The notes under the pieces: generated by a model
What the model was told of the DNA's origin: nothing
The model's input: the letters and a program-made list of their open reading frames with translations, nothing else
Databases searched by the model: none
Position numbers and translations under genes: made by a program
Assembly: GCA_009914755.4 (NCBI GenBank)
Contig: CP086569.2
Location: 40,672,001-40,736,000, forward strand
Reading direction: 5' to 3'
Length of the DNA stretch: 64,000 nucleotides
DNA from: the human T2T-CHM13v2.0 reference genome, Homo sapiens
Shown: positions 3,001 through 51,575 of the stretch, piece after piece
Layout of the letters: each line of letters opens with the position of its first letter
Position numbering within the stretch: position 1 is the first letter of the stretch

Positions 3001-3553
3001 GAAATGGAATGGAATAGAAAGGAATGGAATGAAATGGAATGGAAAGGATTCGAATGGAATGCAATCGAATGGAATGGAATCGAACGGAATGGAATAAAAT
3101 GGAAGAAAACTGGCAAGAAATGGAATCGAAATGAATGGAGTGTTATGGAACGGACTCAAAAGGAATTGAATGTAATAGAATGGAGTGGAGTGGACTCGAA
3201 TATAATGGACTGGAATGGAATGAAATCACATGGAATGGGAACGAATGGAATGGAATGGAAAGGAATGGAATCGAATGGAAAGGAATCGAATGGAAGGGAA
3301 TGAAATTGAATCAACAGGAATGGAAGGGAATAGAATAGACGGTAATGGAATGGACTCGAATAGAATGGACACGAATGCTCAAATTGAATGGACTCGAATG
3401 GAATGGAAACGAAAGGAATGTCATCGAATGGAATTGAATCGATTGGAATGAAATCGCATAGAATGGAGTGGAATCAAATGGAATTGAATCGAAAGGAAAG
3501 GAAGCGAATGGACTGAAATGAAATGGAATGGAATTGAATGGAAAGTAATGCAA
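1..3553 (+). repeat. DYZ1: DYZ1-type HSat3 higher-order repeat copy 1 (3553 bp)
   Basis: Position 1 (tggaatagaatggaacgaaatttca) realigns at 3554, 7133, 10662 and 14206. The pure (GGAAT)9 tract lies at 581-625. Confidence 0.8.
581..625 (+). repeat. perfect (GGAAT)9 microsatellite-like tract inside HOR copy 1
   Basis: Nine uninterrupted ggaat units are followed by gggat. Confidence 0.9.
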
Positions 3554-6500
3554 TGGAATAGAATGGAACGAAATTTCACGGAATGGAATCAAACTGAATG
3601 GAATCAAATCAATGGAATCTAATCAAATGGAATGGAAAGGAATTGAATGGAGTAGATTGGATTGGATGGGATTGGAATGAAATGTACTGGAAAGGACTCG
3701 AATTTCATGAAACGGAATGGAATGAATTGGAACGGAATGGACTCGAATGGAATGGAATGTCATGGAATGGCATCAAATGGAATGGCATCAAATGGAATGG
3801 AATCGAATGCAATGGAATGCTATGGAATGGAATGGAATGCATTGGAATGGAATGTCCTCTAATGGAATGGATTCGAGTGGAATGGAATCGAATATAATGG
3901 AGTCGAATGAAATGGAATTGAAAGGAATGGGATCGAATAGAATGGAATATACTGAAATGTAATGTAATGAACTCGAATATAATTGACTGGAATGGAATGT
4001 ACATGAATGGAATGTAATCGAATGGAAAGTAATCCAATGGAATAGAATCTAATGCAATAAAACCGACTCAGATAGAGTAGAATGTAATGGAATGGAGTGC
4101 AGTGCAATGGAATGGAATGGAATTGAATGCAATGGAATGGAATGGAATGGAATGGAATGGAATGGAATGGAATGGAATGGAATGGAATGGGATGGAATGG
4201 TATGGAATGGATAGTAATGGACTGGAGTGAAATGGACTGGAAAGGAATGGACTCAAATTGAAAGGGCTCGAAAGGAATGGAGTCAAATGGAATGGTCTGG
4301 AATGGAATGAACACGAGTGTAATGCAATCCAATAGAATGGAAACGAATGACATGGAATATAAAGAAATGGAATCGAAGAGAATGGAAACAAATGGAATGG
4401 AATTGAATGGAATGGAATTGAATGGAATGGGAACGAATGGAGTGAAATTGTATGCAGTAGAAGGGAATAGAATGGAATGCAAGCGAAAGGAAAGGAATGG
4501 ATTGGAATGGAATGGAATTCATTGGAATGGAAGGGAATGTAGTGTAATGGACAGGCCTGGAATAAAGTGGAATGCTACGGTCTCGAATGGAATAAAAATG
4601 TATGGAATGGAATGCAATGAAACGGAATCGAATGTCATAGAATGTAATGGAATGCAAAAAAATGGAATCCAAAATCATTGACTGGAAAGGCTGGGTGTCG
4701 AAAGGAATTGACTCCAATGGAATGGAATCGAATGGAATGGAAGTGAATAGAATCGAACTAAATCGAATGGAATGGAATTGATAGGAACGGAATGGAAAGG
4801 AATGCAATGATTTGGCATGGAATGGAATCGAATGGCATCGAATGGAATGGAATGGAATGCAATGGAATGGAATGTATTAGAATGTAATGAACTTTAATGG
4901 AATGTACTCGAATGGATTCGACTGGAATGGAATGTTCTGGAAGTGAATGGACTCCAATGGAATGGATTCCAAAGGAATGGAATCGTACGGAATGGAATCT
5001 AATGGAATGGAATTAAATGGAAATGAATCAAATTGAATAGCACGGAATTGAATTGAATGGAATCGAATGCAATGGAATCTAATGAAACGGAAAGGAAAGG
5101 AATGCAATGGAATGGAATGGGCTGGAATGGAAAGGAATCGAAACGAATGGAATGGAATCGAACTGAAGAGACTGGAATGGAATGCACTGGAATGGAAGGG
5201 AGTGTAATGGAAGGTTCTCGAAAAAAATGGAATCGAATGGAATGGAATTGAATGGAACGGAATAGAGTCGAATGGAATTGAATGGAATGGAATGGACTAG
5301 AGTGAAATGGAATCGAACCACAAGGAATGGACAGGAATAGAATGGTCTCGAATTGAATGGAATCGTATGGAATGGCATCAAACGGAATGGAATGGACAGC
5401 CACGGAATGGAATGCACTCGAATGCAATGGAGTCGAAACTAATGGACTGGAATAGAATGGACTCGACTGGTACGGACTCCAATGGAAGGGAATCGAATGG
5501 AAGGGAATCGAACGGAATGGACTCGAAGGGAAAAGACTGCAATGGAAAGGTCTCGAATGGAATGGAAATTAATGGAATGGAATGGAATCGAATGAAATGG
5601 AGTCAAAAGGAATGGAATCGAATGGCAAGAAATCGAATGTAATGGAATCGCAAGGAATTGATGTGAACGGAAGGGAATGGAATGGAATCCAAAGGAATGG
5701 AATAGAATGGAATGGAATCGAATGGAAAGGACTCGAATGGAAATCACTGGAATAGAATGCAATTTAATAAAATAGGATCAAATGTAATGGAATGGAATGG
5801 AAAGGAATCGAAACGAAAGGAATGGAGACAGATGGAATGGAATAGAACAGAGAGCAATGGTATAGAATCGAATGGAATCATCTGGAATGGAATTGAATGG
5901 AATGGAATAATATGAAATGGAATGGAATGGAATGGAATGGAATGCCCTTGAATTAAATGGACTGGAATGGAATGGACTCGAACAGAGTGGAATGGAAAGT
6001 GTTGAGATAGAATGGAATGGACTCGTTTGGAATGGTCTAGTATGCAATGCAATCGACTGGCAGGGAATCAAAAGGAATGTAATCGAATGGATTGGACTGG
6101 AATGCAATGGACTTGAAGAGATTGCAAACGGAATGCAAAGGAATGGAATGGAATAGTATGGAATGGAATGGAAAGGAATGGAGTGGAATAGACTAGAGTG
6201 GAATGGAATGGACTGGAAAGCAATGGACTGGAATGGAACTTTCTTGAATGGACTGGAATCAAACGGAATGGAATGCAATGCAATCAAATGGCATGGAATA
6301 AAATAGAATGAAAGAGAATCAAATGGAATTGAATCGAATGGAATCGAATGGATTGGAAAGGAATAGAATGGAATGGAATGGAATTGACTCAAATGGAATG
6401 GACTAGAATGGAATGGATTCGAATGGAAGGCAAAGGAATGGAATCTATTGGAATGTACTGTAATGGAATGGAATGGAAGGGATTGGAATGGACTCGAATG

Positions 6501-7132
6501 GAATGGACTGCAATAGAAAGGATTCGAATGGAATGAAAAAGAATTGAATGGAATAGAACAGAATGGAATCAAATCGAATGAAATGGAATGGAATAGAAAG
6601 GAATGGAATGAAATGGAATGGAAAGGATTCGAATGGAATGCAATCGAATGGAATGGAATCGAACGGAATGGAATAAAATGGAAGAAAACTGGCAAGAAAT
6701 GGAATCGAAATGAATGGAGTGTTATGGAACGGACTCAAAAGGAATTGAATGTAATAGAATGGAGTGGAGTGGACTCGAATATAATGGACTGGAATGGAAT
6801 GAAATCACATGGAATGGGAACGAATGGAATGGAAGGGAAAGGAATGGAATCGAATGGAAAGGAATCGAATGGAAGGGAATGAAATTGAATCAACAGGAAT
6901 GGAAGGGAATAGAATAGACGGTAATGGAATGGACTCGAATTGAATGGACACGAATGCTCAAATTGAATGGACTCGAATGGAATGGAAACGAAAGGAATGT
7001 CATCGAATGGAATTGAATCGATTGGAATGAAATCGCATAGAATGGAGTGGAATCAAATGGAATTGAATCGAAAGGAAAGGAAGCGAATGGACTGAAATGA
7101 AATGGAATGGAATTGAATGGAAAGTAATGCAA
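3554..7132 (+). repeat. DYZ1: DYZ1-type HSat3 higher-order repeat copy 2 (3579 bp)
   Basis: Copy 2 is near-identical to copy 1, with only a few substitutions by eye. It is longer because the pure (GGAAT) tract has 11 units (4134-4188) instead of 9, plus other small indels. Confidence 0.8.
4134..4188 (+). repeat. perfect (GGAAT)11 tract inside HOR copy 2 (slippage variant of 581-625)
   Basis: Eleven uninterrupted ggaat units account for +10 bp relative to copy 1 at the homologous site. Confidence 0.9.
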
Positions 7133-10100
7133 TGGAATAGAATGGAACGAAATTTCACGGAATGGAATCAAACTGAATGGAATCAAATCAATGGAATCTA
7201 ATCAAATGGAATGGAAAGGAATTGAATGGAGTAGATTGGATTGGATGGGATTGGAATGAAATGTACTGGAAAGGACTCGAATTTCATGAAACGGAATGGA
7301 ATGAATTGGAACGGAATGGACTCGAATGGAATGGAATGTCATGGAATGGCATCAAATGGAATGGAATCGAATGCGATGGAATGCTATGGAATGGAATGGA
7401 ATGCATTGGAATGGAATGTCCTCTAATGGAATGTATTCGAGTGGAATGGAATCGAATATAATGGAGTCTAATGAAATGGAATTGAAAGGAATGGGACCGA
7501 ATACAATGGAATATACTGGAATGTAATGTAATGAACTCGAATGTAATTGACTGGAATGGAATGTACATGAATGGAATGTAATCGAATGGAAAGTAATCCA
7601 ATGGAATAGAATCTAATGCAATAAAATCGACTCAGATAGAGTAGAATGTAATGGAAAGGAGTGCAGTGCAATGGAATGGAATGGAATGGAATGCAATGGA
7701 ATGCAATGGAATGGAATGGAATGGGATGGAATGGTGTGGAATGGATAGTAATGGACTGGAGTGAAATGGACTGGAAAGGAATGGACTCAAATTGAAAGGG
7801 CTCGAAAGGAATGGAGTCAAATGGAATGGTCTGGAATGGAATGAACACGAATGTAATGCAATCCAATAGAATGGAATCGAATGGCATGGAATATAAAGAA
7901 ATGGAATCGAAGAGAATGGAAACAAATGGAATGGAATTGAATGGAATGGAATTGAATGGAATGGGAACGAATGGAGTGAAATTGTATGCAGTAGAAGAGA
8001 ATAGAATGGAATGCAAGCGAAAGGAAAGGAATGGATTGGAATGGAATGGAATTCATTGGAATGGAAGGGAATGTAGTGTAATGGACAGGCCTGGAATAAA
8101 GTGGAATGCTACGGTCTCGAATGGAATAAAAATGTATGGAATGGAATGCAATGAAACGGAATCGAATGTCATAGAATGTAATGGAATGCAACAAAATGGA
8201 ATCCAAAATCATTGACTGGAAAGGCTGGGTGTCGAAAGGAATTGACTCCAATGGAATGGAATCGAATGGAATGGAAGTGAATAGAATCGAACTAAATCGA
8301 ATGGAATGGAATTGATAGGAACGGAATGGAAAGGAATGCAATGATTTGGCATGGAATGGAATCGAATGGCATCGAATGGAATGGAATGGAATGCAATGGA
8401 ATGGAATGTATTAGAATGTAATTAACTTTAATGGTATGTACTCGAATGGATTCGACTGGAATGGAATGTTCTGGAAGTGAATGGATTCCAATGGAATGGA
8501 TTCAAAAGGAATGGAATCGTACGGAATGGAATCTAATGGAATGGAATTAAATGGAAATGAATCAAATTGAATAGCACGGAATTGAATTGAATGGAATCGA
8601 ATGCAATGGAATCTAATGAAACGGAAAGGAAAGGAATGGAATGGAATGGAATGGGCTGGAATGGAAAGGAATCGAAACGAATGGAATGGAATCGAACTGA
8701 AGAGACTGGAATGGAATGCACTGGAATGGAAGGGAGTGTAATGGAAGGTTCTCGAAAAAAATGGAATCGAATGGAATGGAATTGAATGGAACGGAATAGA
8801 GTCGAATGGAATTGAATGGAATGGAATGGACTAGAGTGAAATGGAATCGAACCACAAGGAATGGACAGGAATAGAATGGTCTCGAATTGAATGGAATCGT
8901 ATGGAATGGCATCAAACGGAATGGAATGGACAGCCACGGAATGGAATGCACTCGAATGCAATGGAGTCGAAACTAATGGACTGGAATAGAATGGACTCGA
9001 CTGGTACGGACTCCAATGGAATGGAATCGAATGGAAGGGAATCGAACGGAATGGACTCGAAGGGAAAAGACTGCAATGGAAAGGTCTCGAATGGAATGGA
9101 AATTAATGGAATGGAATGGAATCGAATGAAATGGAGTCAAAAGGAATGGAATCGAATGGCAAGAAATCGAATGTAATGGAATCGCCAGGAATTGATGTGA
9201 ACGGAACGGAATGGAATGGAATCCAAAGGAATGGAATAGAATGGAATGGAATCGAATGGAAAGGACTCGAATGGAAATCACTCGAATAGAATGCAATTTA
9301 ATAAAATAGGATCAAATGTAATGGAATGGAATGGAAAGGAATCGAAACGAAAGGAATGGAGACAGATGGAATGGAATGGAACAGAGAGCAATGGTATAGA
9401 ATGGAATGGAATCATCTGGAATGGAATTGAATGGAATGGAATAACATGAAATGGACTGGAATGGAATGGAATGCCCTTGAATTAAATGGACTGGAATGGA
9501 ATGGACTCGAACAGAGTGGAATGGAAAGTGTTGAAATAGAATGGAATGGACTGGTTTGGAATGGTCTAGTATGCAATGCAATCGACTGGCAGGGAATCAA
9601 AAGGAATGTAAACGAATGGATTGGACTGGAACGCAATGGACTCGAATAGATTGGAAACGGAATGCAAAGGAATGGAATGGAATAGTATGGAATGGAATGG
9701 AAAGGAATGGAGTGGAATAGACTAGAGTGGAATGGAATGGACTCGAAAGCAATGGACTGGAATGGAACTTTCTTGAATGGACTGGAATCAAACGGAATGG
9801 AATGCAATGCAATCAAATGGCATGGAATAAAATAGAATGAAAGAGAATCAAATGGAATTGAATCGAATGGAATCGAATGGATTGGAAAGGAATAGAATGG
9901 AATGGAATGGAATTGACTCAAATGGAATGGACTAGAATGGAATGGATTCGAATGGAAGGCAAAGGAATGGAATCTATTGGAATGGACTGTAATGGAATGG
10001 AATGGAAGGGATTGGAATGGACTCGAATGGAATGGACTGCAATAGAAAGGATTCGAATGGAATGAAAAAGAATTGAATGGAATAGAACAGAATGGAATCA

Positions 10101-10661
10101 AATCGAATGAAATGGAATGGAATAGAAAGGAATGGAATGAAATGGAATGGAAAGGATTCGAATGGAATGCAATCGAATGGAATGGAATCGAACGCAATGG
10201 AATAAAATGGAAGAAAACTGGCAAGAAATGGAATCGAAATGAATGGAGTGTTATGGAACGGACTCAAAAGGAATTGAATGTAATAGAATGGAGTGGAGTG
10301 GACTCGAATATAATGGACTGGAATGGAATGAAATCACATGGAATGGGAACGAATGGAATGGAATGGAAAGGAATGGAATCGAATGGAAAGGAATCGAATG
10401 GAAGGGAATGAAATTGAATCAACAGGAATGGAAGGGAATAGAATAGACGGTAATGGAATGGACTCGAATAGAATGGACACGAATGCTCAAATTGAATGGA
10501 CTCGAATGGAATGGAAACGAAAGGAATGTCATCGAATGGAATTGAATCGATTGGAATGAAATCGCATAGAATGGAGTGGAATCAAATGGAATTGAATCGA
10601 AAGGAAAGGAAGCGAATGGACTGAAATGAAATGGAATGGAATTGAATGGAAAGTTATGTAA
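7133..10661 (+). repeat. DYZ1: DYZ1-type HSat3 higher-order repeat copy 3 (3529 bp)
   Basis: Same HOR as copies 1 and 2. The pure-pentamer region is rearranged (7669-7730, interrupted by gcaat units), and the copy is shorter by ~25-50 bp. Confidence 0.8.
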
Positions 10662-13600
10662 TGGAATAGAATGGAACGAAATTTGACGGAATGCAATCAA
10701 ACTGAATGGAATCAAATCAATGGAATCAAATCAAATGGAATGGAAAGGAATTGAATGGAGTAGATTGGATTGGATGGGATTGGAATGAAATGTACTGGAA
10801 AGGACTCGAATTTCATGAAACGGAATGGAATGAATTGGAACGGAATGGACTCGAATGGAATGGAATGTCATGGAATGGCATCAAATGGAATGGCATCAAA
10901 TAGAATGGAATCGAATGCAATGGAGTGCTATGGAATGGAATGGAATGCATTGGAATGGAATGTCCTCTAATGGAATGGATTCGAGTGGAATGGAATCGAA
11001 TATAATGGAGTCGAATGAAATGGAATTGAAAGGAATGGGATCGAATACAATGGAATATACTGGAATGTAATGTAATGAACTCGAATGTAATTGACTGGAA
11101 TGGAATGTACATGAATGGAATGTAATTTAATGGAAAGTAATCCAATGGAATAGAATCTAATGCAATAAAATCGACTCAGATAGAGTAGAATGTAATGGAA
11201 TGGAGTGCAGTGCAATGGAATGGAATGGAATGGAATGCAATGGAATGGAATGGAATGGAATGGAATGGGATGGAATGGGATGGAATGGATAGTAATGGAC
11301 TGGAGTGAAATGGACTGGAAAGGAATGGACTCAAATTGAAAGGGCTCGAAAGGAATGGAGTCAAATGGAATGGTCTGGAATGGAATGAACACGAATGTAA
11401 TGCAATCCAATAGAATGGAATCGAATGGCATGGAATATAAAGAAATGGAATCGAAGAGAATGGAAACAAATGGAATGGAATTGAATGGAATGGAATTGAA
11501 TGGAATGGGAACGAATGGAGTGAAATTGTATGCAGTAGAAGAGAATAGAATGGAATGCAAGCGAAAGGAAAGGAATGGATTGGAATGGAATGGAATTCAT
11601 TGGAATGGAAGGGAATGTAGTGTAATGGACAGGCCTGGAATAAAGTGGAATGCTACGGTCTCGAATGGAATAAAAATGTATGGAATGGAATGAAATGAAA
11701 CGGAATCGAATGTCATAGAATGTAATGGAATGCAACAAAATGGAATCCAAAATCATTGACTGGAAAGGCTGGGTGTCGAAAGGAATTGACTCCAATGGAA
11801 TGGAATCGAATGGAATGGAAGTGAATAGAATCGAACTAAATCGAATGGAATGGAATTGATAGGAACGGAATGGAAAGGAATGCAATGATTTGGCATGGAA
11901 TGCAATCGAATGGCATCGAATGGAATGGAATGGAATGCAATGGAATGGAATGTATTAGAATGTAATGAACTTTAATGGAATGTACTCGAATGGATTCGAC
12001 TGGAATGGAATGTTCTGGAAGTGAATGGACTCCAATGGAATGGATTCCAAAGGAATGGAATCGTACGGAATGGAATCTAATGGAATGGAATTAAATGGAA
12101 ATGAATCAAATTGAATAGCACGGAATTGAATTGAATGGAATGGAATGCAATGGAATCTAATGAAACGGAAAGGAAAGGAATGGAATGGAATGGAATGGGC
12201 TGGAATGGAAAGGAATCGAAACGAATGGAATGGAATCGAACTGAAGAGACTGGAATGGAATGCACTGGAATGGAAGGGAGTGTAATGGAAGGTTCTCGAA
12301 AAAAATGGAATCGAATGGAATGGAATTGAATGGAACGGAATAGAGTCGAATGGAATTGAATGGAATGGAATGGACTAGAGTGAAATGGAATCGAACCACA
12401 AGGAATGGACAGGAATAGAATGGTCTCGAATTGAATGGAATCGTATGGAATGGCATCAAACGGAATGGAATGGACAGCCACGGAATGGAATGCACTCGAA
12501 TGCAATGGAGTCGAAACTAATGGACTGGAATAGAATGGACTCGACTGGTACGGACTCCAATGGAATGGAATCGAATGGAAGGGAATCGAACGGAATGGAC
12601 TCGAAGGGAAAAGACTGCAATGGAAAGGTCTCGAATGGAATGGAAATTAATGGAATGGAATGGAATCGAATGAAATGGAGTCAAAAGGAATGGAATCGAA
12701 TGGCAAGAAATCGAATGTAATGGAATCGCAAGGAATTGATGTGAAAGGAACGGAATGGAATGGAATCCAAAGGAATGGAATAGAATGGAATGGAATCGAA
12801 TGGAAAGGACTCGAATGGAAATCACTCGAATAGAATGCAATTTAATAAAATAGGATCAAATGTAATGGAATGGAATGGAAAGGAATCGAAACGAAAGGAA
12901 TGGAGACAGATGGAATAGAATGGAACAGAGAGCAATGGTATAGAATGGAATGGAATCATCTGGAATGGAATTGAATGGAATGGAATAACATGAAATGGAC
13001 TGGAATGGAATGGAATGCCCTTGAATTAAATGGACTGGAATGGAATGGACTCGAACAGAGTGGAATGGAAAGTGTTGAAATAGAATGGAATGGACTGGTT
13101 TGGAATGGTCTAGTATGCAATGCAATCGACTGGCAGGGAATCAAAAGGAATGTAAACGAATGGATTGGACTGGAATGCAATGGACTCGAATAGATTGGAA
13201 ACGGAATGCAAAGGAATGGAATGGAATAGTATGGAATGGAATGGAAAGGAATGGAGTGGAATAGACTAGAGTGGAATGGAATGGACTGGAAAGCAATGGA
13301 CTGGAATGGAACTTTCTTGAATGGACTGGAATCAAACGGAATGGAATGCAATGCAATCAAATGGCATGGAATAAAATAGAATGAAAGAGAATCAAATGGA
13401 ATTGAATCGAATGGAATCGAATGGATTGGAAAGGAATAGAATGGAATGGAATGGAATTGACTCAAATGGAATGGACTAGAATGGAATGGATTCGAATGGA
13501 AGGCAAAGGAATGGAATCTATTGGAATGGACTGTAATGGAATGGAATGGAAGGGATTGGAATGGACTCGAATGGAATGGACTGCAATAGAAAGGATTCGA

Positions 13601-14205
13601 ATGGAATGAAAAAGAATTGAATGGAATAGAACAGAATGGAATCAAATCGAATGAAATGGAATGGAATAGAAAGGAATGGAATGAAATGGAATGGAAAGGA
13701 TTCGAATGGAATGCAATCGAATGGAATGTAATCGAACGCAATGGAATAAAATGGAAGAAAACTGGCAAGAAATGGAATCGAAATGAATGGAGTGTTATGG
13801 AACGGACTCAAAAGGAATTGAATGTAATAGAATGGAGTGGAGTGGACTCGAATATAATGGACTGGAATGGAATGAAATCACATGGAATGGGAACGAATGG
13901 AATGGAATGGAAAGGAATGGAATCGAATGGAAAGGAATCGAATGGAAGGGAATGAAATTGAATCAACAGGAATGGAAGGGAATAGAATAGACGGTAATGG
14001 AATGGACTCGAATAGAATGGACACGAATGCTGAAATCGAATGGACTCGAATGGAATGGAAACGAAAGGAATGTCATCGAATGGAATTGAATCGATTGGAA
14101 TGAAATCGCATAGAATGGAGTGGAATCAAATGGAATTGAATCGAAAGGAAAGGAAGCGAATGGACTGAAATGAAATGGAATGGAATTGAATGGAAAGTAA
14201 TGCAA
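10662..14205 (+). repeat. DYZ1: DYZ1-type HSat3 higher-order repeat copy 4 (3544 bp)
   Basis: Same HOR as the other copies, with a GGCC site at 11632-11635. Confidence 0.8.
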
Positions 14206-14700
14206 TGGAATAGAATGGAACGAAATTTCACGGAATGGAATCAAACTGAATGGAATCAAATCAATGGAATCAAATCAAATGGAATGGAAAGGAATTGAAT
14301 GGAGTAGATTGGATTGGATGGGATTGGAATGAAATGTACTGGAAAGGACTCGAATTTCATGAAACGGGATGGAAAGAATTGGAACGGAATGGACTCGAAT
14401 GGAATGGAATGTCATGGAATGGCATCAAATGGAATGGCATCAAATGGAATGGAATCGAATGTAATTGAGTGCTATGGAATGGAATGGAATGCATTGGAAT
14501 GGAATGTCCTCTAATGGAATGGATTCGAGTGGAATGGAATCGAATATAATGGAGTCGAATGAAATGGAATTGAAAGGAATGGGATCGAATACAATGGAAT
14601 ATACTGGAATGTAATGTAATGAACTCGAATGTAATTGACTGGAATGGAATGTACATGAATGGAATGTAATCGAATGGAAAGTAATCCAATGGAATAGAAT
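14206..14700 (+). repeat. DYZ1: DYZ1-type HSat3 higher-order repeat copy 5, truncated at HOR position ~496 by the junction with the AT-rich array
   Basis: Copy 5 aligns to copy-1 positions 1-496 and then diverges at ggaatagaatc|atatatgat. Confidence 0.8.
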
Positions 14701-14705
14701 CATAT
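14696..14705. other. abrupt junction between the HSat3 (DYZ1) array and the AT-rich 2.4-kb (DYZ2) array
   Basis: The last pentamers ...ccaatggaatagaatc are immediately followed by atatatgatatataatatatgtataatattgttttacatcctgcatc. That sequence is homologous to the start of the AT-rich segment of later units (e.g. 16346-16440). The strands share 1-3 bp (tc/atc) at the breakpoint. Confidence 0.85.
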
Positions 14706-16320
14706 ATGATATATAATATATGTATAATATTGTTTTACATCCTGCATCTTATGTTATATATATTGTATAAAATATAATAATTGATTATATATACTTTTAT
14801 AACATAATTTACATAAAATATCATAATATAATATATATTATATTATTTCATATTACATAATATATATTACATATCACCCAATATAAGTAACATACATAAT
14901 ATTATAATATAGATTATATTATGTTATATTAAATATCATATATATTATGTATCATATATTGTATAATATATATTATACATTATATAATATGTATGTTGTC
15001 TATTATGTGATATATATAACTATACATATAATTATATTATTATACGTATAACTAGATAAACATGTAATTCTACATATTTTCATTTATAATATATAGAATT
15101 ATATAATCATATATAATTATGTATATTCTATAAAAAATTATATCATTATATAAATTATAATATATAAAAATTATAATATGTACTACAAATATATATATTA
15201 TATATCATATATGATATAGTACCTTTGTTATATATCATAATACATATAAATGTGTATTATGTTATCTATAATTATATAATTTCATATATAAGCTGTATAA
15301 TATGTATTATATATTATATATGTTATGTAATATATATAGTATATATAAGATGACACAGGATAAATATTATATACTATGACATATAAGATATATGAGGTTA
15401 TATGTTTCATATAAGGCATAGCCCATAACATGTAATATATATCATATATAATTTTTTTTTAGACAGAGTCTTGTCGTGTTGCACAGGGTGGGGTACAATG
15501 GCGACATCTTTGCTCACTGCAACATCTGCCTCACGGGTCCAAGCGATTGTCCTCCCTCAGCCTCCCAGGTAGCTGGGACTACACCACACTGGGACTACAC
15601 CAGCCTCCACCATGCCTAGCTAATTTTTTGGATTTTTAGTAGTGACAGCGTTTCACTGTATTGGCCAGGATGGTCTTGATATCTTCACCTTGTGATCCCC
15701 TTGCCTTGGCCTCCAAATTTGCTGGGATTACAGGCCTGAGCCAAGATCCATATTTTTTAAAGGAAAAAAAATTTCAAAGGTACTCTGCTTGGTACAATAA
15801 TCAAATGTATAAACTGAGGAATAAAACATAACCATGAAACCTACTTATAACTGCATATGGAAAATACAGAGGATAATTTTTTAAATAACATATTTTGAAA
15901 GCCTTAACTAGTAATTTGAAGAGTTGGCATTTGAAAGGCCAGTATGAATATACCTTCAAAGCAGCAACACCGGTTCCCCATGAGAAAAAGCAAACTCAGG
16001 GAAAATAAAACCACAAAGGTTCAATCTCTTCTGACCTTTGAAAGACACAGCACAGACAGTGGTCCTTAGGACGAAGAGCAGGAGACCCCTAATTCCGTCA
16101 CCATGGCGATAGGGCATAAATATTGCTGGGTGAGGGCACAATCCACATTGTGAGGTCCAAGTGCTGCCAGGAAGACAGGAGTGCTTTTACATAGACCGAA
16201 AGGTCATTGAAGGCTCAGAGTTTTGTTTCAAGAACTGAATCCCAAGCCCACACGTTATTAGGCTGCGCTTCTTGAAACAAGTTATGAGATGGGAAAAAGG
16301 GCACCCACAAACATACGTAT
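14701..16320. repeat. DYZ2: DYZ2-type unit 1 (1620 bp), junction-proximal and truncated: lacks ~770 bp of the AT-rich segment
   Basis: 14701-14785 matches 16346-16436 of unit 2, then jumps to the homolog of ~17208 onward (aataattgat|tatatatacttttataac). Unit 1 carries many private substitutions in the Alu and in the mixed segment. Confidence 0.8.
15452..15750 (-). mobile_element. ancient Alu SINE (antisense; poly-A tail appears as 5' T-run), copy in DYZ2 unit 1
   Basis: The sequence tttttttttagacagagtcttg...gcctcccaggtagctgggactaca...ggccaggatggtcttgat...gctgggattacaggcctgagcc matches the reverse complement of the Alu consensus over ~300 bp. It shows heavy CpG decay and a 16-bp internal tandem duplication (c[at]ctgggactacacca twice). 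Confidence 0.95.
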
Positions 16321-28395
<12,075 letters not shown>

Positions 28396-30814
28396 ACATT
28401 ATGTATATAATAATATACAGTATCATATATATAATATATATAACCTATGTATAATATTGTTTTACATCCTGCATCTTATATTATATATATTGTATAAAAT
28501 ATAATAATTGATAATATATAAGTTCTATATTTATACAATATGACATATAGTATATATTATAATTTATGACATACATAATATATGTTATATATCATATATA
28601 GAATATATTATACGGTTAATATACGTATTAAATATAAATTATACATTATATATATTATACATAATATATCTGTTATATATAATACCCATTATGCATAATA
28701 TATATATTAGGTCTATGTTATATATAGTATAAAACAACATATAATAATATATAATTGTATATATAAAATGCGACATATAATATATATTATATTTTATGAC
28801 ATATGTAATATATATTATATATTATATATAATACGTTGTATGTATAATATCTATATTAAATATATATTATATGACTATGTTATTAATTACATGTCACATG
28901 TGTTATATATTATATATTTTACATAGAATATACCGGTTACATACAATATATACTATGTTACCTGTAATGTATAATTTAATACATGTAAAATAAAGAATGC
29001 AATATATTATGTATAATTTATAATATACAATATGTGGAATGTGATATATATAACATATAATATATGATATATGATATACAGTATATGATATATAACATAC
29101 AATATATGATACCTAATATATATGGTATACAATATATATTTTATGATATGTATTCTCTATGTTTTACATTCTGTTATACATAACTATTTGAAATTATATA
29201 TAACTGTATAATATTTTATGTAAATATGTAATATAATATATATAACTATATAATATATTATATATAACTATATATTATGTTATATATACTTTTATAACAT
29301 AATTTACATGAAATATCATAATATAATATATATTATATTATTTCATATTACATAATATATATTACATATCACCCAATATAAGTAACATACATAATATTAT
29401 AATATAGAATATATTATGTTATATTAAATATCATATATATCATGTATCATATATGCTATAATATATATTAAACATTATATAATATGTATGTTGTCTATTA
29501 TGTGATATATATAACTATATATATAATTATATTATTATACATATAACTAGATAAACATGTAATTCTACATATTTAGATTTATAATATATATAATTATATA
29601 ATCATATTTAATTATTTAAATTCTATAAAAAATTATATCATTATATAAATTATAATATATAATAATTATAATATGTCCTACAAATATATATATTATATAT
29701 CATATATGATATAGTACCTTTGTTATATATCATAATATATATAAATGTGTATTATGTTATCTATAATGATATAATTTCATATATAAGATGTATAATATGT
29801 ATTATATATTATATATGTTATGTAATATATATAGTATATATAAGATGACACAGGATAAATATTATATACTATGACATATAAAATATAAGAGGTTATATGT
29901 TACATATAAGGCATAGCACATAACATGTAATATATATCATCTATAATTTTTTTTTAGACAGAGTCTTGTCCTGTTGCACAGGGTGGGGTACAATGGCGCC
30001 ATCTTTGCTCATTGCAACATCTGCCTCACGGGTCCAAGCGATTGTCCTCCCTCAGCCTCCCAGGTAGCTGGGACTACACCACACTGGGACTACACCAGCT
30101 GCCACCATGCCTAGCTAATTTTTTGGATTTTAGTAGGGACAGCGTTTCACTGTATTGGCCAGGATGGTCTTGATCTCTTCACCTTGTGATCCCCTTGCCT
30201 TGGCCTCCAAATTTGCTGGGATTACAGGCCTGAGCCAAGATCCATATTTTTTAAATGCAAAAAAATTTCAAAGGTACTCTGCTTGGTACAATAATCAAAT
30301 GTATAAACTGAGGAATAAAACATAACCATGAAACCTACTTATAACTGCATATGGAAAATACAGAGGATAATTTTTTAAATAACATATTTTGAAAGCCTTA
30401 ACTAGTAATTTGAAGAGTTGGCATTTGAAAGGCCAGTATGAATATACCTTCAAAGCAGCAACACAGGTTCCCCATGAGAAAAAGCAAACTCAGGGAAAAT
30501 AAAACCACAAAGGTTCAATCTCTTCTGACCTTTGAAAGACACAGCACAGAGAGTGGTCCTTAGGACGAAGAGCAGGAGACCCCTAATTCCGTCACCATGG
30601 CGATAGGGCATAAACACTGCTGGGTGAGGGCACAATCCACATTGTGAGGTCCAACTGCTGCCAGGAAGACAGGAGTGCTTTTACATAGACCGAAAGGTCA
30701 TTGAAGGCTCAGAGTTTTGTTTCAAGAACTGAATCCCAAGCCCACACGTTATTAGGCTGCGCTTCTTAAAACAAGTTATGAGATGGGAAAAAGGGCACCC
30801 ACAAACATACGTAT
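28396..30814. repeat. DYZ2: DYZ2-type unit 7 (2419 bp), variant Y of the dimeric higher-order repeat
   Basis: Unit 7 shares tagaatatattatg, atttagatttataatatatataatt, tagtagggacagcg, aaatgcaaaaaaatttc and cacagagagtggtcc with unit 9. Confidence 0.8.
29947..30244 (-). mobile_element. ancient Alu copy in DYZ2 unit 7
   Basis: Same Alu at the same unit position. Confidence 0.95.
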
Positions 30815-33231
<2,417 letters not shown>

Positions 33232-35650
33232 ACATTATGTATATAATAATATACAGTATCATATATATAATATATATAACCTATGTATAATATTGTTTTA
33301 CATCCTGCATCTTATATTATATATATTGTATAAAATATAACAATTGATAATATATAAGTTCTATATTTATACAATATGACATATAGTATATATTATAATT
33401 TATGACATACATAATATATGTTATATATCATATATAGAATATATTATACGGTTAATATACGTATTAAATATAAATTATACATTATATATATTATATATAA
33501 TATATCTGTTATATATAATACCCATTATGCATAATATATATATTAGGTCTATGTTATATATAGTATAAAACAACATATAATAATATATAATTGTATATAT
33601 AAAATGCGACATATAATATATATTATATTTTATGACATATGTAATATATATTATATATTATATATAATACGTTGTATGTATAATATCTATATTAAATATA
33701 TATTATATGACTATGTTATTAATTACATGTCACATGTGTTATATATTATATATTTTACATAGAATATACCGGTTACATACAATATATACTATGTTACCTG
33801 TAATGTATAATTTAATACATGTAAAATAAAGAATGCAATATATTATGTATAATTTATAATATACAATATGTGGAATGTGATATATATAACATATAATATA
33901 TGATATATGATATACAGTATATGATATATAACATACAATATATGATACCTAATATATATGGTATACAATATATATTTTATGATATGTATTCTCTATGTTT
34001 TACATTCTGTTATACATAACTATTTGAAATTATATATAACTGTATAATATTTTATGTAAATATGTAATATAATATATATAACTATATAATATATTATATA
34101 TAACTATATATTATGTTATATATACTTTTATAACATAATTTACATGAAATATCATAATATAATATATATTATATTATTTCATATTACATAATATATATTA
34201 CATATCACCCAATATAAGTAACATACATAATATTATAATATAGAATATATTATGTTATATTAAATATCATATATATCATGTATCATATATGCTATAATAT
34301 ATATTAAACATTATATAATATGTATGTTGTCTATTATGTGATATATATAACTATATATATAATTATATTATTATACATATAACTAGATAAACATGTAATT
34401 CTACATATTTAGATTTATAATATATATAATTATATAATCATATTTAATTATTTAAATTCTATAAAAAATTATATCATTATATAAATTATAATATATAATA
34501 ATTATAATATGTCCTACAAATATATATATTATATATCATATATGATATAGTACCTTTGTTATATATCATAATATATATAAATGTGTATTATGTTATCTAT
34601 AATGATATAATTTCATATATAAGATGTATAATATGTATTATATATTATATATGTTATGTAATATATATAGTATATATAAGATGACACAGGATAAATATTA
34701 TATACTATGACATATAAAATATAAGAGGTTATATGTTACATATAAGGCATAGCACATAACATGTAATATATATCATCTATAATTTTTTTTTAGACAGAGT
34801 CTTGTCCTGTTGCACAGGGTGGGGTACAATGGCGCCATCTTTGCTCATTGCAACATCTGCCTCACGGGTCCAAGCGATTGTCCTCCCTCAGCCTCCCAGG
34901 TAGCTGGGACTACACCACACTGGGACTACACCAGCTGCCACCATGCCTAGCTAATTTTTTGGATTTTAGTAGGGACAGCGTTTCACTGTATTGGCCAGGA
35001 TGGTCTTGATCTCTTCACCTTGTGATCCCCTTGCCTTGGCCTCCAAATTTGCTGGGATTACAGGCCTGAGCCAAGATCCATATTTTTTAAATGCAAAAAA
35101 ATTTCAAAGGTACTCTGCTTGGTACAATAATCAAATGTATAAACTGAGGAATAAAACATAACCATGAAACCTACTTATAACTGCATATGGAAAATACAGA
35201 GGATAATTTTTTAAATAACATATTTTGAAAGCCATAACTAGTAATTTGAAGAGTTGGCATTTGAAAGGCCAGTATGAATATACCTTCAAAGCAGCAACAC
35301 AGGTTCCCCATGAGAAAAAGCAAACTCAGGGAAAATAAAACCACAAAGGTTCAATCTCTTCTGACCTTTGAAAGACACAGCACAGAGAGTGGTCCTTAGG
35401 ACGAAGAGCAGGAGACCCCTAATTCCGTCACCATGGCGATAGGGCATAAACACTGCTGGGTGAGGGCACAATCCACATTGTGAGGTCCAACTGCTGCCAG
35501 GAAGACAGGAGTGCTTTTACATAGACCGAAAGGTCATTGAAGGCTCAGAGTTTTGTTTCAAGAACTGAATCCCAAGCCCACACGTTATTAGGCTGCGCTT
35601 CTTAAAACAAGTTATGAGATGGGAAAAAGGGCACCCACAAACATACGTAT
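33232..35650. repeat. DYZ2: DYZ2-type unit 9 (2419 bp), variant Y
   Basis: See unit 7. It lies exactly 4836 bp downstream of unit 7. Confidence 0.8.
34783..35080 (-). mobile_element. ancient Alu copy in DYZ2 unit 9
   Basis: Same Alu at the same unit position. Confidence 0.95.
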
Positions 35651-42904: not shown

Positions 42905-50164
<7,260 letters not shown>

Positions 50165-50686
50165 ACATTATGTATATAATAATATACAGTATCATATATA
50201 TACTATATATAACCTATGTATAATATTGTTTTACATCCTGCATCTTATGTTATATATATTGTATAAAATATAATAATTGATAATATATAAGTTTTATAAT
50301 TATACAATATGACATATAGTATATATTATAATTTATGACATATATAATATATGTTATATATCATATATACAATATATTATACGGTTAATATACGTATTAA
50401 ATATAAATTATACATTATATATATTATATATAATATATCTGTTATATATAATACCCATTATGCATAATATATATATTATGTCTATGTTATATATAGTATA
50501 AAACAACATATAATAATATATAATTGTATATATAAAATGCGACATATAATATATATTATATTTTATAACATATGTAATATATATTATATATTATATATAA
50601 TACGTTGTATGTATAATACCTATATTAAATATATATTATATGACTATGTTATTAATTACATGTCACATGTGTTATATATTATATAT

Positions 50687-50723
50687 TTTACATAGAATAT
50701 GCCGGTTACATATTCTATGTAAA
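50687..50723. repeat. perfect inverted repeat (15-bp arms, 7-bp loop) marking the deletion junction in DYZ2 unit 16
   Basis: Arm 1 is tttacatagaatatg (50687-50701). The loop is ccggtta (50702-50708). Arm 2 is catattctatgtaaa (50709-50723), the exact reverse complement of arm 1. Arm 2 is absent from every other unit. Confidence 0.9.
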
Positions 50724-51005
50724 TCTTGTCCTGTTGCACAGGGTGGGGTACAATGGCGCCATCTTTGCTCACTGCAACTTCTGCCTCACGGGTCCAAGCG
50801 ATTGTCCTCCCTCAGCCTCCCAGGTAGCTGGGACTACACCACACTGGGACTACACCAGCTGCCACCATGCCTAGCTAATTTTTTGGATTTTTAGTAGTGA
50901 CAGCGTTTCACTGTATTGGCCAGGATGGTCTTGATCTCTTCACCTTGTGATCCCCTTGCCTTGGCCTCCAAATTTGCTGGGATTACAGGCCTGAGCCAAG
51001 ATCCA
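50724..51005 (-). mobile_element. ancient Alu copy in DYZ2 unit 16, truncated: the A-tail and ~8 adjacent bases were removed by the unit-16 deletion
   Basis: This copy starts at tcttgtcctgttgcacagg instead of tttttttttagacagaatcttg. Confidence 0.9.
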
Positions 51006-51575
51006 TATTTTTTAAATGAAAAAAAATTTCAAAGGTACTCTGCTTGGTACAATAATCAAATGTACAAACTGAGGAATAAAACATAACCATGAAACCTACT
51101 TATAACTGCATATGGAAAATACAGAGGATAATTTTTTAAATAACATATTTTGAAAGCCTTAACTAGTAATTTGAAGAGGTGGCATTTGAAAGGCCAGTAT
51201 GAATATACCTTCAAAGCAGCAACACAGGTTCCCCATGAGAAAAAGCAAACACAGGGAAAATAAAAACACAAAGGTTCAATCTCTTCTGACCTTTGAAAGA
51301 CACAGCACAGACAGTGGTCCTTAGGACGAAGAGCAGGAGACCCCTAATTCCGTCACCATGGCGATAGGGCATAAACATTGCTGGGTGAGGGCACAATCCA
51401 CATTGTGAGGTCCAAGTGCTGCCAGGAAGACAGGAGTGCTTTTACATAGACCGAAAGGTCATTGAAGGCTCAGAGTTTTGTTTCAAGAACTGAATCCCAA
51501 GCCCACACGTTATTAGGCTGCGCTTCTTAAAACAAGTTATGAGATGGGAAAAAGGGCACCCACAAACATACGTAT

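What the first reader, a model, noticed from the sequence alone, without database searches (positions are those of the whole stretch)
50640..50760. ~1-kb deletion in one DYZ2 unit whose junction is a perfect palindrome: a templated fold-back / template-switch repair scar
Unit 16 is 1411 bp. Relative to its neighbours it lacks ~1019 bp, from just after ccggttacata through the first ~17 bp of the Alu A-tail side. At the junction sits a ~10-bp insertion (ttctatgtaa) that is the exact reverse complement of the sequence 14-23 bp upstream. This produces tttacatagaatatg-ccggtta-catattctatgtaaa (15-bp arms, 7-bp loop, 50687-50723). The base immediately 5' of the loop is g (gccggtt), where every other unit has a (accggtt), and this change extends the palindrome by one pair. 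A newly templated inverted copy at a deletion breakpoint is the hallmark of replication fork template switching (FoSTeS/MMBIR-like), caught here in a recent satellite variant. It is the most mechanistically informative single feature in the window.
Basis: partly seen in the sequence, partly recalled or inferred. Interest (0 to 1): 0.5.

Follow-up and report, generated by a model that had tools for sequence, protein, structure and literature searches.

The report
Deletion scar with fold-back copied filler
One copy of a human Y-chromosome satellite repeat lost about 1 kb and was rejoined with nine bases copied backwards from the DNA next to the break, a textbook repair scar that is real but of a well-known kind.

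Summary
The window is a (GGAAT)n array followed by about 2.42-kb DYZ2/HSat1B units. The unit at 50029-51439 is 1411 bp. It lacks 1018-1020 bp of its neighbours (unit positions 685-1704). It carries a 9-bp filler, TTCTATGTA (50713-50721), found nowhere else in the window in this orientation.

The filler is the in-register reverse complement of the retained left flank. A 3-nt priming match (ATA) precedes it and a 2-nt match (AA) to the far side follows it. The result is a perfect palindrome with 15-bp arms and a 7-nt loop (50687-50723), the longest perfect hairpin in the window.

The fold-back-templated reading is supported. The specific attribution to replication-fork switching (FoSTeS/MMBIR) is not. 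The junction meets every testable criterion of the "snap-back/foldback" insertions of polymerase-theta-type end joining, and sequence alone cannot separate the two.

The private A>G at 50701 lies in the template arm, so fold-back copying cannot have produced it. It is non-random (about 0.5% by chance) but unexplained. "Recent" is not supported, because the unit has four other private substitutions. No second copy of the junction turned up. Read support could not be checked. This is an ordinary, clean example of a known mutation class.

The parts
50029..51439 (+). Short (1411-bp) DYZ2/HSat1B unit carrying the deletion
   Evidence: The anchor spacing is 1411 bp, against 2412-2422 bp for all other units. 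Both retained halves are closest to the adjacent units 15-21, at 3-8 differences.
50687..50701 (+). Left arm of the palindrome. It is ancestral sequence and served as the template for the filler. Its last base (50701) is the private A>G.
   Evidence: It is present at the homologous place in all 19 other units with A at the last position.
50701..50701 (+). Private A>G substitution that lengthens the stem from 14 to 15 bp and shortens the loop from 9 to 7 nt
   Evidence: The counts are 19 A and 1 G. The fold is -11.7 kcal/mol with G and -9.5 with A restored.
50702..50708 (+). Hairpin loop CCGGTTA (ancestral sequence)
50710..50712 (+). Priming microhomology ATA, the last retained bases of the left flank. 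It pairs with TAT at 50698-50700. With the G allele the match is 4 nt (CATA, 50709-50712).
50713..50721 (+). 9-bp filler TTCTATGTA, the reverse complement of 50689-50697
   Evidence: It is unique in this orientation in the window. Its reverse complement occurs once per unit. It is absent in either orientation from the deleted segment and from the right flank.
50722..50723 (+). Resolving microhomology AA. These are the first retained bases of the right flank and also continue the reverse-complement copy of the template.
50709..50723 (+). Right arm of the palindrome, made of 4 ancestral nt, the 9 filler nt and 2 right-flank nt
50722..50998 (-). Alu-derived part of the unit. In this copy it has lost its A-tail (T9 on the + strand) and the last 6 nt of its body.
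   Evidence: In an alignment to an AluY consensus supplied from memory, Alu positions 13-289 are present in unit 15 but only 13-272 in the short unit. The full-length right flank is shown. The DYZ2 anatomy is taken from the papers read.

Best explanation
This is a real, single, in-place deletion of about 1.02 kb within one DYZ2/HSat1B unit. It removed the distal two-thirds of the AT-rich block, plus the A-tail and last 6 nt of the Alu fragment. The ends were rejoined by a fold-back (snap-back) templated-insertion mechanism.

Shown by the sequence:
- the two breakpoints;
- no direct microhomology between them;
- a 9-nt filler that is the exact in-register reverse complement of the retained left flank;
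- a 3-nt priming match and a 2-nt resolving match.

Inferred steps:
1. A break, or a collapsed fork, in the hairpin-prone AT-rich segment left a 3' single strand ending in ...CCGGTTACATA.
2. Its last 3 nt (ATA) folded back onto TAT, 9 nt upstream.
3. A polymerase extended by 9-11 nt, copying TTTACATAGAA.
4. The hairpin melted, and the new 3' AA annealed to the AA of ...AGACAG|AATCTTG on the other end.
5. Fill-in and ligation completed the join.

The enzyme most consistent with this anatomy is polymerase theta (TMEJ / SD-MMEJ snap-back class). That assignment comes from published junction signatures and was not tested here.

The A>G at 50701 is a separate step of unknown origin. Candidates are error-prone synthesis near the junction, correction of the A.C mismatch in the hairpin, conversion from another unit, or a pre-existing variant that gave a 4-nt primer.
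For: - The unit is 1411 bp and the breakpoints are fixed.
- The filler is unique in this orientation. Its only possible template in the window is the homologous left-flank site. It is absent from the deleted segment and from the right flank.
- The anatomy is: 3-nt priming match, 9-nt loop (4 nt and 7 nt with the G allele), template 16-24 nt from the breakpoint on the retained side, 2-nt resolving match, and 0 bp of direct microhomology between the breakpoints.
- These values match the published criteria for snap-back SD-MMEJ: preferred primer repeats of 3-4 nt, less than 10 nt apart, with the insertion becoming part of a longer inverted repeat (PMC5728401).
- They also match POLQ foldback insertions: template on the retained side, peak within 20 bp, offset to leave room for a hairpin, and 2-3-bp resolving microhomology (PMC11541566).
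- Chance is unlikely: 1.4e-5 under the composition model and at most 1.6% under the most generous null.
- Both halves of the unit are nearest to their immediate neighbours, so this is an in-place deletion and not a recombinant.
- The deleted segment is 86% AT and contains a native 14-bp-arm palindrome. HSat1B is reported as enriched in inverted repeats. Together these offer a plausible source of breakage.
Against: - The total templated span (14-15 nt) is longer than the 'typically less than 10 bp' reported for POLQ templates.
- A 1-kb deletion is larger than is usual after a clean nuclease cut, although deletions induced by replication stress and dependent on POLQ are far larger.
- Nothing in the sequence identifies the polymerase or shows that a two-ended break existed.
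- The A>G is not explained by the fold-back step.
- Read-level support for the assembly could not be examined.
- No independent copy of the junction was found.
Confidence: 0.6

Rival explanations
1. This is the first reader's replicative template switch (FoSTeS/MMBIR-like). A nascent strand stalled in the AT-rich, hairpin-prone block and disengaged after ...CATA. It primed on its own upstream sequence, or on the same-sense strand across the fork, and copied 9-11 nt. It then switched again by 2-nt microhomology to a template 1 kb downstream. No two-ended break is involved.
For: - The same sequence facts apply: two switches, each with 2-3 nt of microhomology, and an inverted templated tract.
- The region is rich in inverted repeats.
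- A point change 12 nt from the breakpoint fits the error-prone synthesis reported near replicative junctions; that point rests on my own knowledge.
Against: - FoSTeS/MMBIR were proposed for multi-junction complex rearrangements (introduction). Here there is one simple deletion with a filler under 12 nt.
- Prospective experiments assign microhomology and short-templated-insertion junctions formed under replication stress mainly to POLQ end joining in mitosis (PMC11541566).
- No sequence feature here is specific to the replicative model.
Confidence: 0.25
2. The junction is an assembly or sequencing artefact. The short unit and its palindromic junction would then not exist in the donor's chromosome.
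For: [quoted passage not shown]
- No reads were available here.
- No second copy of the junction was found in any searchable collection.
Against: - Collapse in a tandem array removes whole units in register. It does not remove 1020 bp from inside one unit and add a 9-nt inverted filler.
- The unit carries four other private substitutions spread over its length, as expected of a genuine, independently evolving copy.
- The junction has an orderly anatomy of priming and resolving microhomology.
Confidence: 0.05
3. The right arm is not newly copied. It would be remodelled ancestral sequence. The ancestral unit has ATATACTATGT 15 nt to the right of CCGG, which forms a quasi-palindrome with the left arm. 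The junction would then have arisen by a 7-bp deletion, an A>T change and a separate 1-kb deletion that starts right after CTATGT.
For: - The ancestral site folds as ACATAG.a.ATATA / TATAT.a.CTATGT at -3.9 kcal/mol.
- ATATACTATGTTA is a 2-mismatch match to the right arm.
Against: - This route needs three or four independent changes that together happen to yield a perfect 14-15-bp complement. The single-copy model needs one.
- The ancestral fold is no better than shuffled sequence (z = -0.85 to -0.97).
Confidence: 0.03
4. The filler is untemplated or of unrelated origin, and its complementarity to the flank is a coincidence of low-complexity AT-rich DNA.
For: In this satellite, 6% of random AT-rich 9-mers have an inverted copy somewhere within 50 bp of a breakpoint.
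Against: - Complementarity that is in register with the breakpoint is far rarer: 0.14-1.6% under the generous null and about 1e-5 under the composition model.
- The filler contains C and G and is otherwise absent from the array in this orientation.
Confidence: 0.02

Closest known systems
Snap-back (foldback / inverse) templated insertions of synthesis-dependent MMEJ / polymerase-theta-mediated end joining (Yu & McVey 2010, PMC2943611, identified but not read; Khodaverdian et al. 2017, PMC5728401; Wilson et al. 2024, PMC11541566)
   Same: - The filler is an inverted copy of the retained flank, within 24 nt of the breakpoint.
- A 3-4-nt inverted primer repeat is separated by 7-9 nt.
- A 2-nt resolving microhomology lies on the other end.
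- The filler becomes part of a longer inverted repeat.
- The original breakpoints share no microhomology (compared).
   Different: - The templated span of 14-15 nt is above the usual span of less than 10 bp.
- The deletion is 1 kb.
- The event lies in a germline satellite array, not at an induced break.
- Enzyme dependence is unknown.
- There is an extra A>G in the template arm.
FoSTeS / MMBIR replicative template switching
   Same: Serial switches use 2-3-nt microhomologies, the inserted tract is templated, and a point change lies close to the junction.
   Different: There is only one simple deletion and one very short local template. There are no duplications, triplications or distant templates. 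Nothing shows that a replication fork rather than a break was the substrate.
Short template-switch mutations / quasi-palindrome correction (Ripley-type model as I know it; four-point model of Loytynoja & Goldman 2017, cited from my own knowledge; PMC3820800 and PMC8604942 were listed, abstracts only)
   Same: A nascent strand copies the nearby opposite arm and creates a perfect inverted repeat. The ancestral site is a weak quasi-palindrome.
   Different: In those events synthesis returns to the original template next to the point of departure, so length is nearly conserved. Here the return point is 1020 bp downstream. The one base that looks 'corrected' (A>G) sits next to the loop in the template arm, where intramolecular priming cannot reach it.
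Length variants of the DYZ2 AT-rich block (Hallast et al. 2023: the AT-rich portion is 'highly variable in length')
   Same: The deletion lies almost wholly in the AT-rich block. The boundary unit of the same array has another internal deletion, of 768 bp.
   Different: The boundary-unit deletion has a plain junction without filler. The unit-16 junction carries a templated inverted filler. No paper read here describes a 1411-bp unit.

Membership tests
DYZ2 / HSat1B satellite of human Yq12 | Tandem unit of about 2.4 kb (modal lengths 2,413 and 2,420 bp) | tested here: met
   There are 19 full-length units of 2412-2422 bp.
DYZ2 / HSat1B satellite of human Yq12 | Three-part unit: an extremely AT-rich block, a 5'-truncated diverged Alu, and a more GC-rich HSATI part | tested here: met
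   The deleted part of the AT-rich block is 86% AT. The Alu fragment covers Alu positions 13-289 at 77% identity to an AluY consensus supplied from memory. There is a sub-threshold minus-strand mir-1268 match; as far as I know, that family is Alu-derived.
DYZ2 / HSat1B satellite of human Yq12 | Arrays alternate with DYZ1 (HSat3, pentamer-derived) arrays | tested here: met
   A (GGAAT)n array at 1-14.7 kb abuts the first DYZ2 unit at about 14.70 kb.
Snap-back / foldback templated insertion (SD-MMEJ, TMEJ) | The filler is a reverse-complement copy of the retained flank close to the breakpoint (peak within about 20 bp, up to about 30 bp) | tested here: met
   The template lies 16-24 nt upstream of the left breakpoint on the retained side.
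Snap-back / foldback templated insertion (SD-MMEJ, TMEJ) | An inverted primer repeat at the 3' end, in register with the filler (3-4 nt preferred), less than 10 nt from its partner and offset enough to allow a hairpin | tested here: met
   ATA pairs with TAT across a 9-nt loop in the ancestral state. With the G allele, CATA pairs with TATG across a 7-nt loop.
Snap-back / foldback templated insertion (SD-MMEJ, TMEJ) | [quoted passage not shown] | tested here: met
   The 2-nt AA continues the template copy and is also the first two retained bases of the right flank.
Snap-back / foldback templated insertion (SD-MMEJ, TMEJ) | Net template size, including microhomologies, typically less than 10 bp | tested here: not met
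   The span here is 14 nt (3 + 9 + 2), or 15 nt with the G allele. 'Typically' describes a tendency, not a rule.
Snap-back / foldback templated insertion (SD-MMEJ, TMEJ) | Dependence on polymerase theta and on a DSB intermediate | not testable with these tools
   This requires genetics or biochemistry.
FoSTeS / MMBIR | Microhomology at each template switch | tested here: met
   The two switches have 3 nt and 2 nt.
FoSTeS / MMBIR | Complex product with several junctions or templated segments, often distant and often with copy-number gain | tested here: not met
   There is one deletion and one 9-nt local filler. The flanking units are intact and in register.
FoSTeS / MMBIR | Origin at a stalled or collapsed replication fork in S phase | not testable with these tools
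   No sequence feature discriminates this.
Short template-switch mutation / quasi-palindrome correction | The new bases are the reverse complement of adjacent sequence | tested here: met
Short template-switch mutation / quasi-palindrome correction | Synthesis returns to the original template next to the point of departure, so length is approximately conserved | tested here: not met
   The return point is 1018-1020 bp downstream.
Short template-switch mutation / quasi-palindrome correction | A pre-existing imperfect inverted repeat in the same register that is made perfect | tested here: inconclusive
   The ancestral site has a 6+5-bp imperfect hairpin, but with a different spacing (14-nt loop), and its fold is no better than shuffles.

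The most novel reading that the evidence does not exclude
On this reading the A>G at 50701 is not a coincidence. It would be the product of hairpin-directed correction of the loop-adjacent A.C mismatch, or of enhanced damage to an unpaired A. Palindromes created by repair in Y heterochromatin would then tend to perfect themselves.

A parallel case exists. The native DYZ2 palindrome (for example 48907-48943) carries an A>G difference that turns a C.A mismatch into a pair in the distal units.

If this were general, HSat1B would be a natural system in which fold-back repair and subsequent correction build long perfect palindromes de novo.
Probability: 0.08. Interest if true: 0.4.

Novelty: new member of a known kind. 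Interest (0 to 1): 0.22.

Why it matters
The junction is a clean, fully resolved natural example of a fold-back templated insertion at a kilobase deletion inside human Y heterochromatin, with the ancestral sequence preserved 19 times alongside it.

It shows that DYZ2 unit-length variation in the AT-rich block arises not only by slippage or unequal exchange but also by break repair with templated synthesis. That repair can create a stable new palindrome (-11.7 kcal/mol) in an already hairpin-prone satellite.

The junction 27-mer is a unique marker. It could be used to trace this unit, and any array expansions carrying it, across Y haplogroups.

It does not reveal a new mechanism.

Tried and rejected
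1. Independent copies of the junction. I looked up the exact protein of the 84-aa ORF that spans it. I scanned metagenome contigs for the G-bearing left arm and for the A/G-independent junction, and genome contigs for the same two patterns. All five came back empty. How much DYZ2 those collections hold is unknown, so this is weak negative evidence.
2. Viral contigs gave one hit, L001. It is an unrelated AT-rich contig with about 480 bp of ancestral-state DYZ2 attached to one end, so it is contamination or a chimera and uninformative.
3. A direct-orientation donor for the filler. There is none in the window. The best direct matches have 1 mismatch (ATATTTTATGTAA) or 2 mismatches (ATATTCTATAAAA), and the filler is absent from the deleted segment. 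Rejected.
4. Foldback from the right-hand end. There is no template in the 500 bp of right flank. Rejected.
5. A recombinant between divergent units. Both halves are nearest to the same neighbours. Rejected.
6. Simple microhomology-mediated deletion. The breakpoints share 0 bp of direct microhomology. Rejected.
7. Several templated models for the A>G were worked through by hand: intramolecular priming, cross-fork switching, and nicked-hairpin extension. Each either cannot reach a loop-adjacent base or predicts an inverted loop, which is not observed. Rejected by reasoning.
8. An array-wide bias towards hairpin-stabilising substitutions. Observed 14.9% against 14.5% expected, P = 0.47. There is no such bias.
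9. Literature. No paper read describes a 1411-bp DYZ2 unit or this junction.

Full report
**What the window is.** Tandem Repeats Finder shows a (GGAAT)n-type array at 1-14,700. After it, anchor motifs recur every 2412-2422 bp to the end of the window. Each unit has three parts: an extremely AT-rich block, a minus-strand 5'-truncated Alu fragment, and a more GC-rich part. The Alu fragment covers Alu positions 13-289 at 77% identity to an AluY consensus that I supplied from memory, and there is a sub-threshold minus-strand mir-1268 match. This is the published anatomy of human Yq12 DYZ2/HSat1B next to DYZ1/HSat3. The published modal unit lengths are 2,413 and 2,420 bp, and the AT-rich block is described as 'highly variable in length' (Rhie et al. 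and Hallast et al.).

**Checking the observation.** One interval between anchors is 1411 bp, from 50029 to 51440. In the alignment with both neighbours:
- The short unit is collinear through ...CCGGTTACATA, ending at 50712.
- It then reads TTCTATGTA (50713-50721).
- It resumes at AATCTTGTCCTGTTGCACAGG (50722 onward).
- The missing segment is unit-15 positions 685-1704, which is 1020 bp, or 1018 bp relative to unit 17. The arithmetic closes: 2422 - 1020 + 9 = 1411.
- The loss covers the distal part of the AT-rich block (86% AT), the nine-T tract that is the Alu A-tail on this strand, and 6 nt (AGACAG) of the Alu body.

The palindrome at 50687-50723 is TTTACATAGAATATG-CCGGTTA-CATATTCTATGTAAA. 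It is perfect, cannot be extended, and is the only perfect hairpin with 15-bp arms in the 64 kb. As single-stranded DNA it folds at -11.7 kcal/mol (z = -7.7). The homologous site in the neighbours folds at -3.9, and the junction with the ancestral A restored folds at -9.5.

The minor corrections are:
- the filler is 9 bp rather than 10;
- the template lies 16-24 nt upstream rather than 14-23;
- 15 nt of the Alu end are lost rather than about 17;
- 19 other units are informative rather than 20;
- four of those units differ elsewhere in the accggtt heptamer.

**Is it more than chance?** TTCTATGTA does not occur in forward orientation anywhere else in the window. It occurs 0 times among 29,640 9-mers of the AT-rich blocks. 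Its reverse complement occurs exactly once per unit, at the homologous left-flank site. The composition-model probability of that exact in-register 9-mer is about 1.4e-5.

This DNA is low-complexity, so I also used a deliberately generous null with fillers drawn from the local AT-rich 9-mer pool. An inverted copy somewhere within 50 bp then turns up in 6% of trials. A copy that continues a hairpin in register from the breakpoint turns up in only 0.14-0.18% of trials at random breakpoints, and in 1.6% at the real breakpoint. The filler is templated.

**Anatomy of the junction.**
- The last three retained bases on the left (ATA, 50710-50712) are complementary to TAT, 9 nt upstream. With the G allele this becomes CATA against TATG with a 7-nt loop.
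- The 9-nt filler continues that complementarity base for base.
- The next two bases (AA, 50722-50723) continue the copy and are also the first two bases of the right flank.
- The two ancestral breakpoints share no direct microhomology.
- The filler has no template in the deleted segment or in the right flank, in either orientation. A foldback from the right end, or a direct-copy origin, is therefore excluded.
- Both retained halves of the unit are closest to the immediately adjacent units, at 3-8 differences against 12-18 for the most distant proximal units. The deletion therefore happened in place, within one unit, and not by exchange between divergent units.

**Mechanism.** The simplest path has five steps:
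1. A 3' single strand ending in ...CCGGTTACATA is exposed.
2. It folds back on itself by 3 nt.
3. It is extended by 9-11 nt.
4. It unfolds and anneals by AA to the far end.
5. The join is completed.

The sequence relations are shown. The break, the resection and the enzyme are inferred.

This is exactly the 'snap-back' route of synthesis-dependent MMEJ. That route involves preferred inverted primer repeats of 3-4 nt, less than 10 nt apart, limited synthesis that creates a new microhomology, and an insertion that becomes part of a longer inverted repeat (PMC5728401). It is also the 'foldback (inverse)' class of POLQ templated insertions. In that class, templates lie on the retained side with a strong peak within 20 bp of the breakpoint, are offset to leave room for a hairpin, and have 2-3-bp resolving microhomology (PMC11541566). 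The junction meets every criterion I could test except one tendency: net template size is reported as typically less than 10 bp, and here it is 14-15 nt.

Two points weigh against it. Those models were proposed for multi-junction complex rearrangements. And prospective experiments now assign replication-stress deletions with microhomology and short templated fillers mainly to POLQ end joining. I therefore put end-joining snap-back ahead of a replicative switch, at roughly 0.6 against 0.25. The two models also converge if the break came from a collapsed fork in this AT-rich, inverted-repeat-rich DNA. The deleted segment itself holds a native 14-bp-arm palindrome, and HSat1B is reported as enriched for inverted repeats.

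**The A>G.** It lengthens the stem by one pair and is worth -2.2 kcal/mol. It lies in the template arm, while its partner C at 50709 is ancestral. Fold-back copying therefore cannot have written it.

Outside the filler the unit has five private substitutions in about 1400 bp. About 4 of the roughly 4200 possible substitutions would extend the palindrome, so the chance of a coincidental hit is about 0.5%. This is my own estimate from the counts. The change is thus probably connected to the event or to the hairpin, but I could not find a templated route. Intramolecular priming cannot reach a loop-adjacent base, and cross-fork or nicked-hairpin routes predict an inverted loop, which is not seen.

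The remaining options are:
- error-prone synthesis near the junction;
- repair of the A.C mismatch in a transient hairpin;
- damage to an unpaired A;
- gene conversion from an unseen G-bearing unit;
- a pre-existing G that provided a 4-nt primer.

No G-bearing unit was found in this window or in the external scans.

I tested whether the array as a whole favours hairpin-stabilising substitutions, and it does not. Of 215 biallelic sites, 14.9% stabilise the local fold by at least 1 kcal/mol, against 14.5% expected for type-matched random substitutions (P = 0.47).

**Age and artefact.** Four further private substitutions, more than most neighbours carry, argue that the unit is not especially young. 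They also argue that it is a genuine, independently evolving copy rather than an assembly collapse. A collapse would be expected to remove whole units in register and would not add an inverted filler. Read support could not be checked here, and that remains the main caveat.

**Search for the same allele elsewhere.** I ran an exact look-up of the junction-spanning 84-aa ORF. I also ran two pattern scans each of metagenome contigs and genome contigs. None found anything. One IMG/VR contig (L001) carries about 480 bp of ancestral-state DYZ2 attached to unrelated DNA, which is contamination and not informative. None of the Y-assembly papers read mentions a 1411-bp unit or this junction.

**Verdict.** The feature is real and accurately described. 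It is a tidy natural example of a known mutation class, a deletion with a fold-back templated insertion. It is more likely a polymerase-theta-type end-joining scar than a FoSTeS/MMBIR event, although sequence cannot decide between them. Its value is as a lineage marker and as an illustration that break repair contributes to DYZ2 length variation and can create new stable palindromes. It is not a new mechanism.

Noticed in passing
window 14696-16184: The first DYZ2 unit after the (GGAAT)n array begins at unit position ~160. It has its own internal 768-bp deletion in the AT-rich block (unit positions 253-1020). The junction at 14784|14785 (...aataattgat|tatatatactttt) is plain, with no filler. 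It is a second, mechanistically different deletion in the same block.
   Followed up: partly
window 48907-48943 and homologous sites (41651, 44069, 52740, 55160, 57580, 60000, 62420; imperfect at 15065, 17485, 19898, 22310, 36815, 39233, 46487 and others): There is a native palindrome in the AT-rich block, taattctacatatt-ttcatttat-aatatGtagaatta. It has perfect 14-bp arms in 8 distal units and a C.A mismatch (aatatAtag) in most proximal units. The A/G difference is of the same kind as the junction's A>G. The palindrome lies inside the segment deleted from the short unit.
   Followed up: partly
window 18605-35515: The proximal units show a period-2 (about 4.8 kb) super-repeat. Units two apart differ at 3-10 sites (u03/u05, u07/u09), while adjacent units differ at 39-55 sites. 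The distal units (from about 47.6 kb) are uniformly similar, at 14-21 differences.
   Followed up: no
window 16402-16839 and the homologous place in other units: Tandem Repeats Finder reports a ~230-bp internal duplication (1.9 copies, about 76% identity) within the AT-rich block of 9 of the units.
   Followed up: no
L001 1-480 (IMGVR_UViG_3300008541_000063): A 14.3-kb contig in the viral collection ends with about 480 bp of human DYZ2 (ancestral state) joined to unrelated AT-rich sequence. This is human-satellite contamination or an assembly chimera, as the T2T-Y paper warns for HSat1B.
   Followed up: partly
window 48268-48305 and the homologous site in every full-length unit: The ancestral sequence at the deletion's left breakpoint already forms a weak quasi-palindrome, ACATAG.a.ATATA - 14 nt - TATAT.a.CTATGT, at -3.9 kcal/mol. 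This is no better than shuffled sequence.
   Followed up: yes
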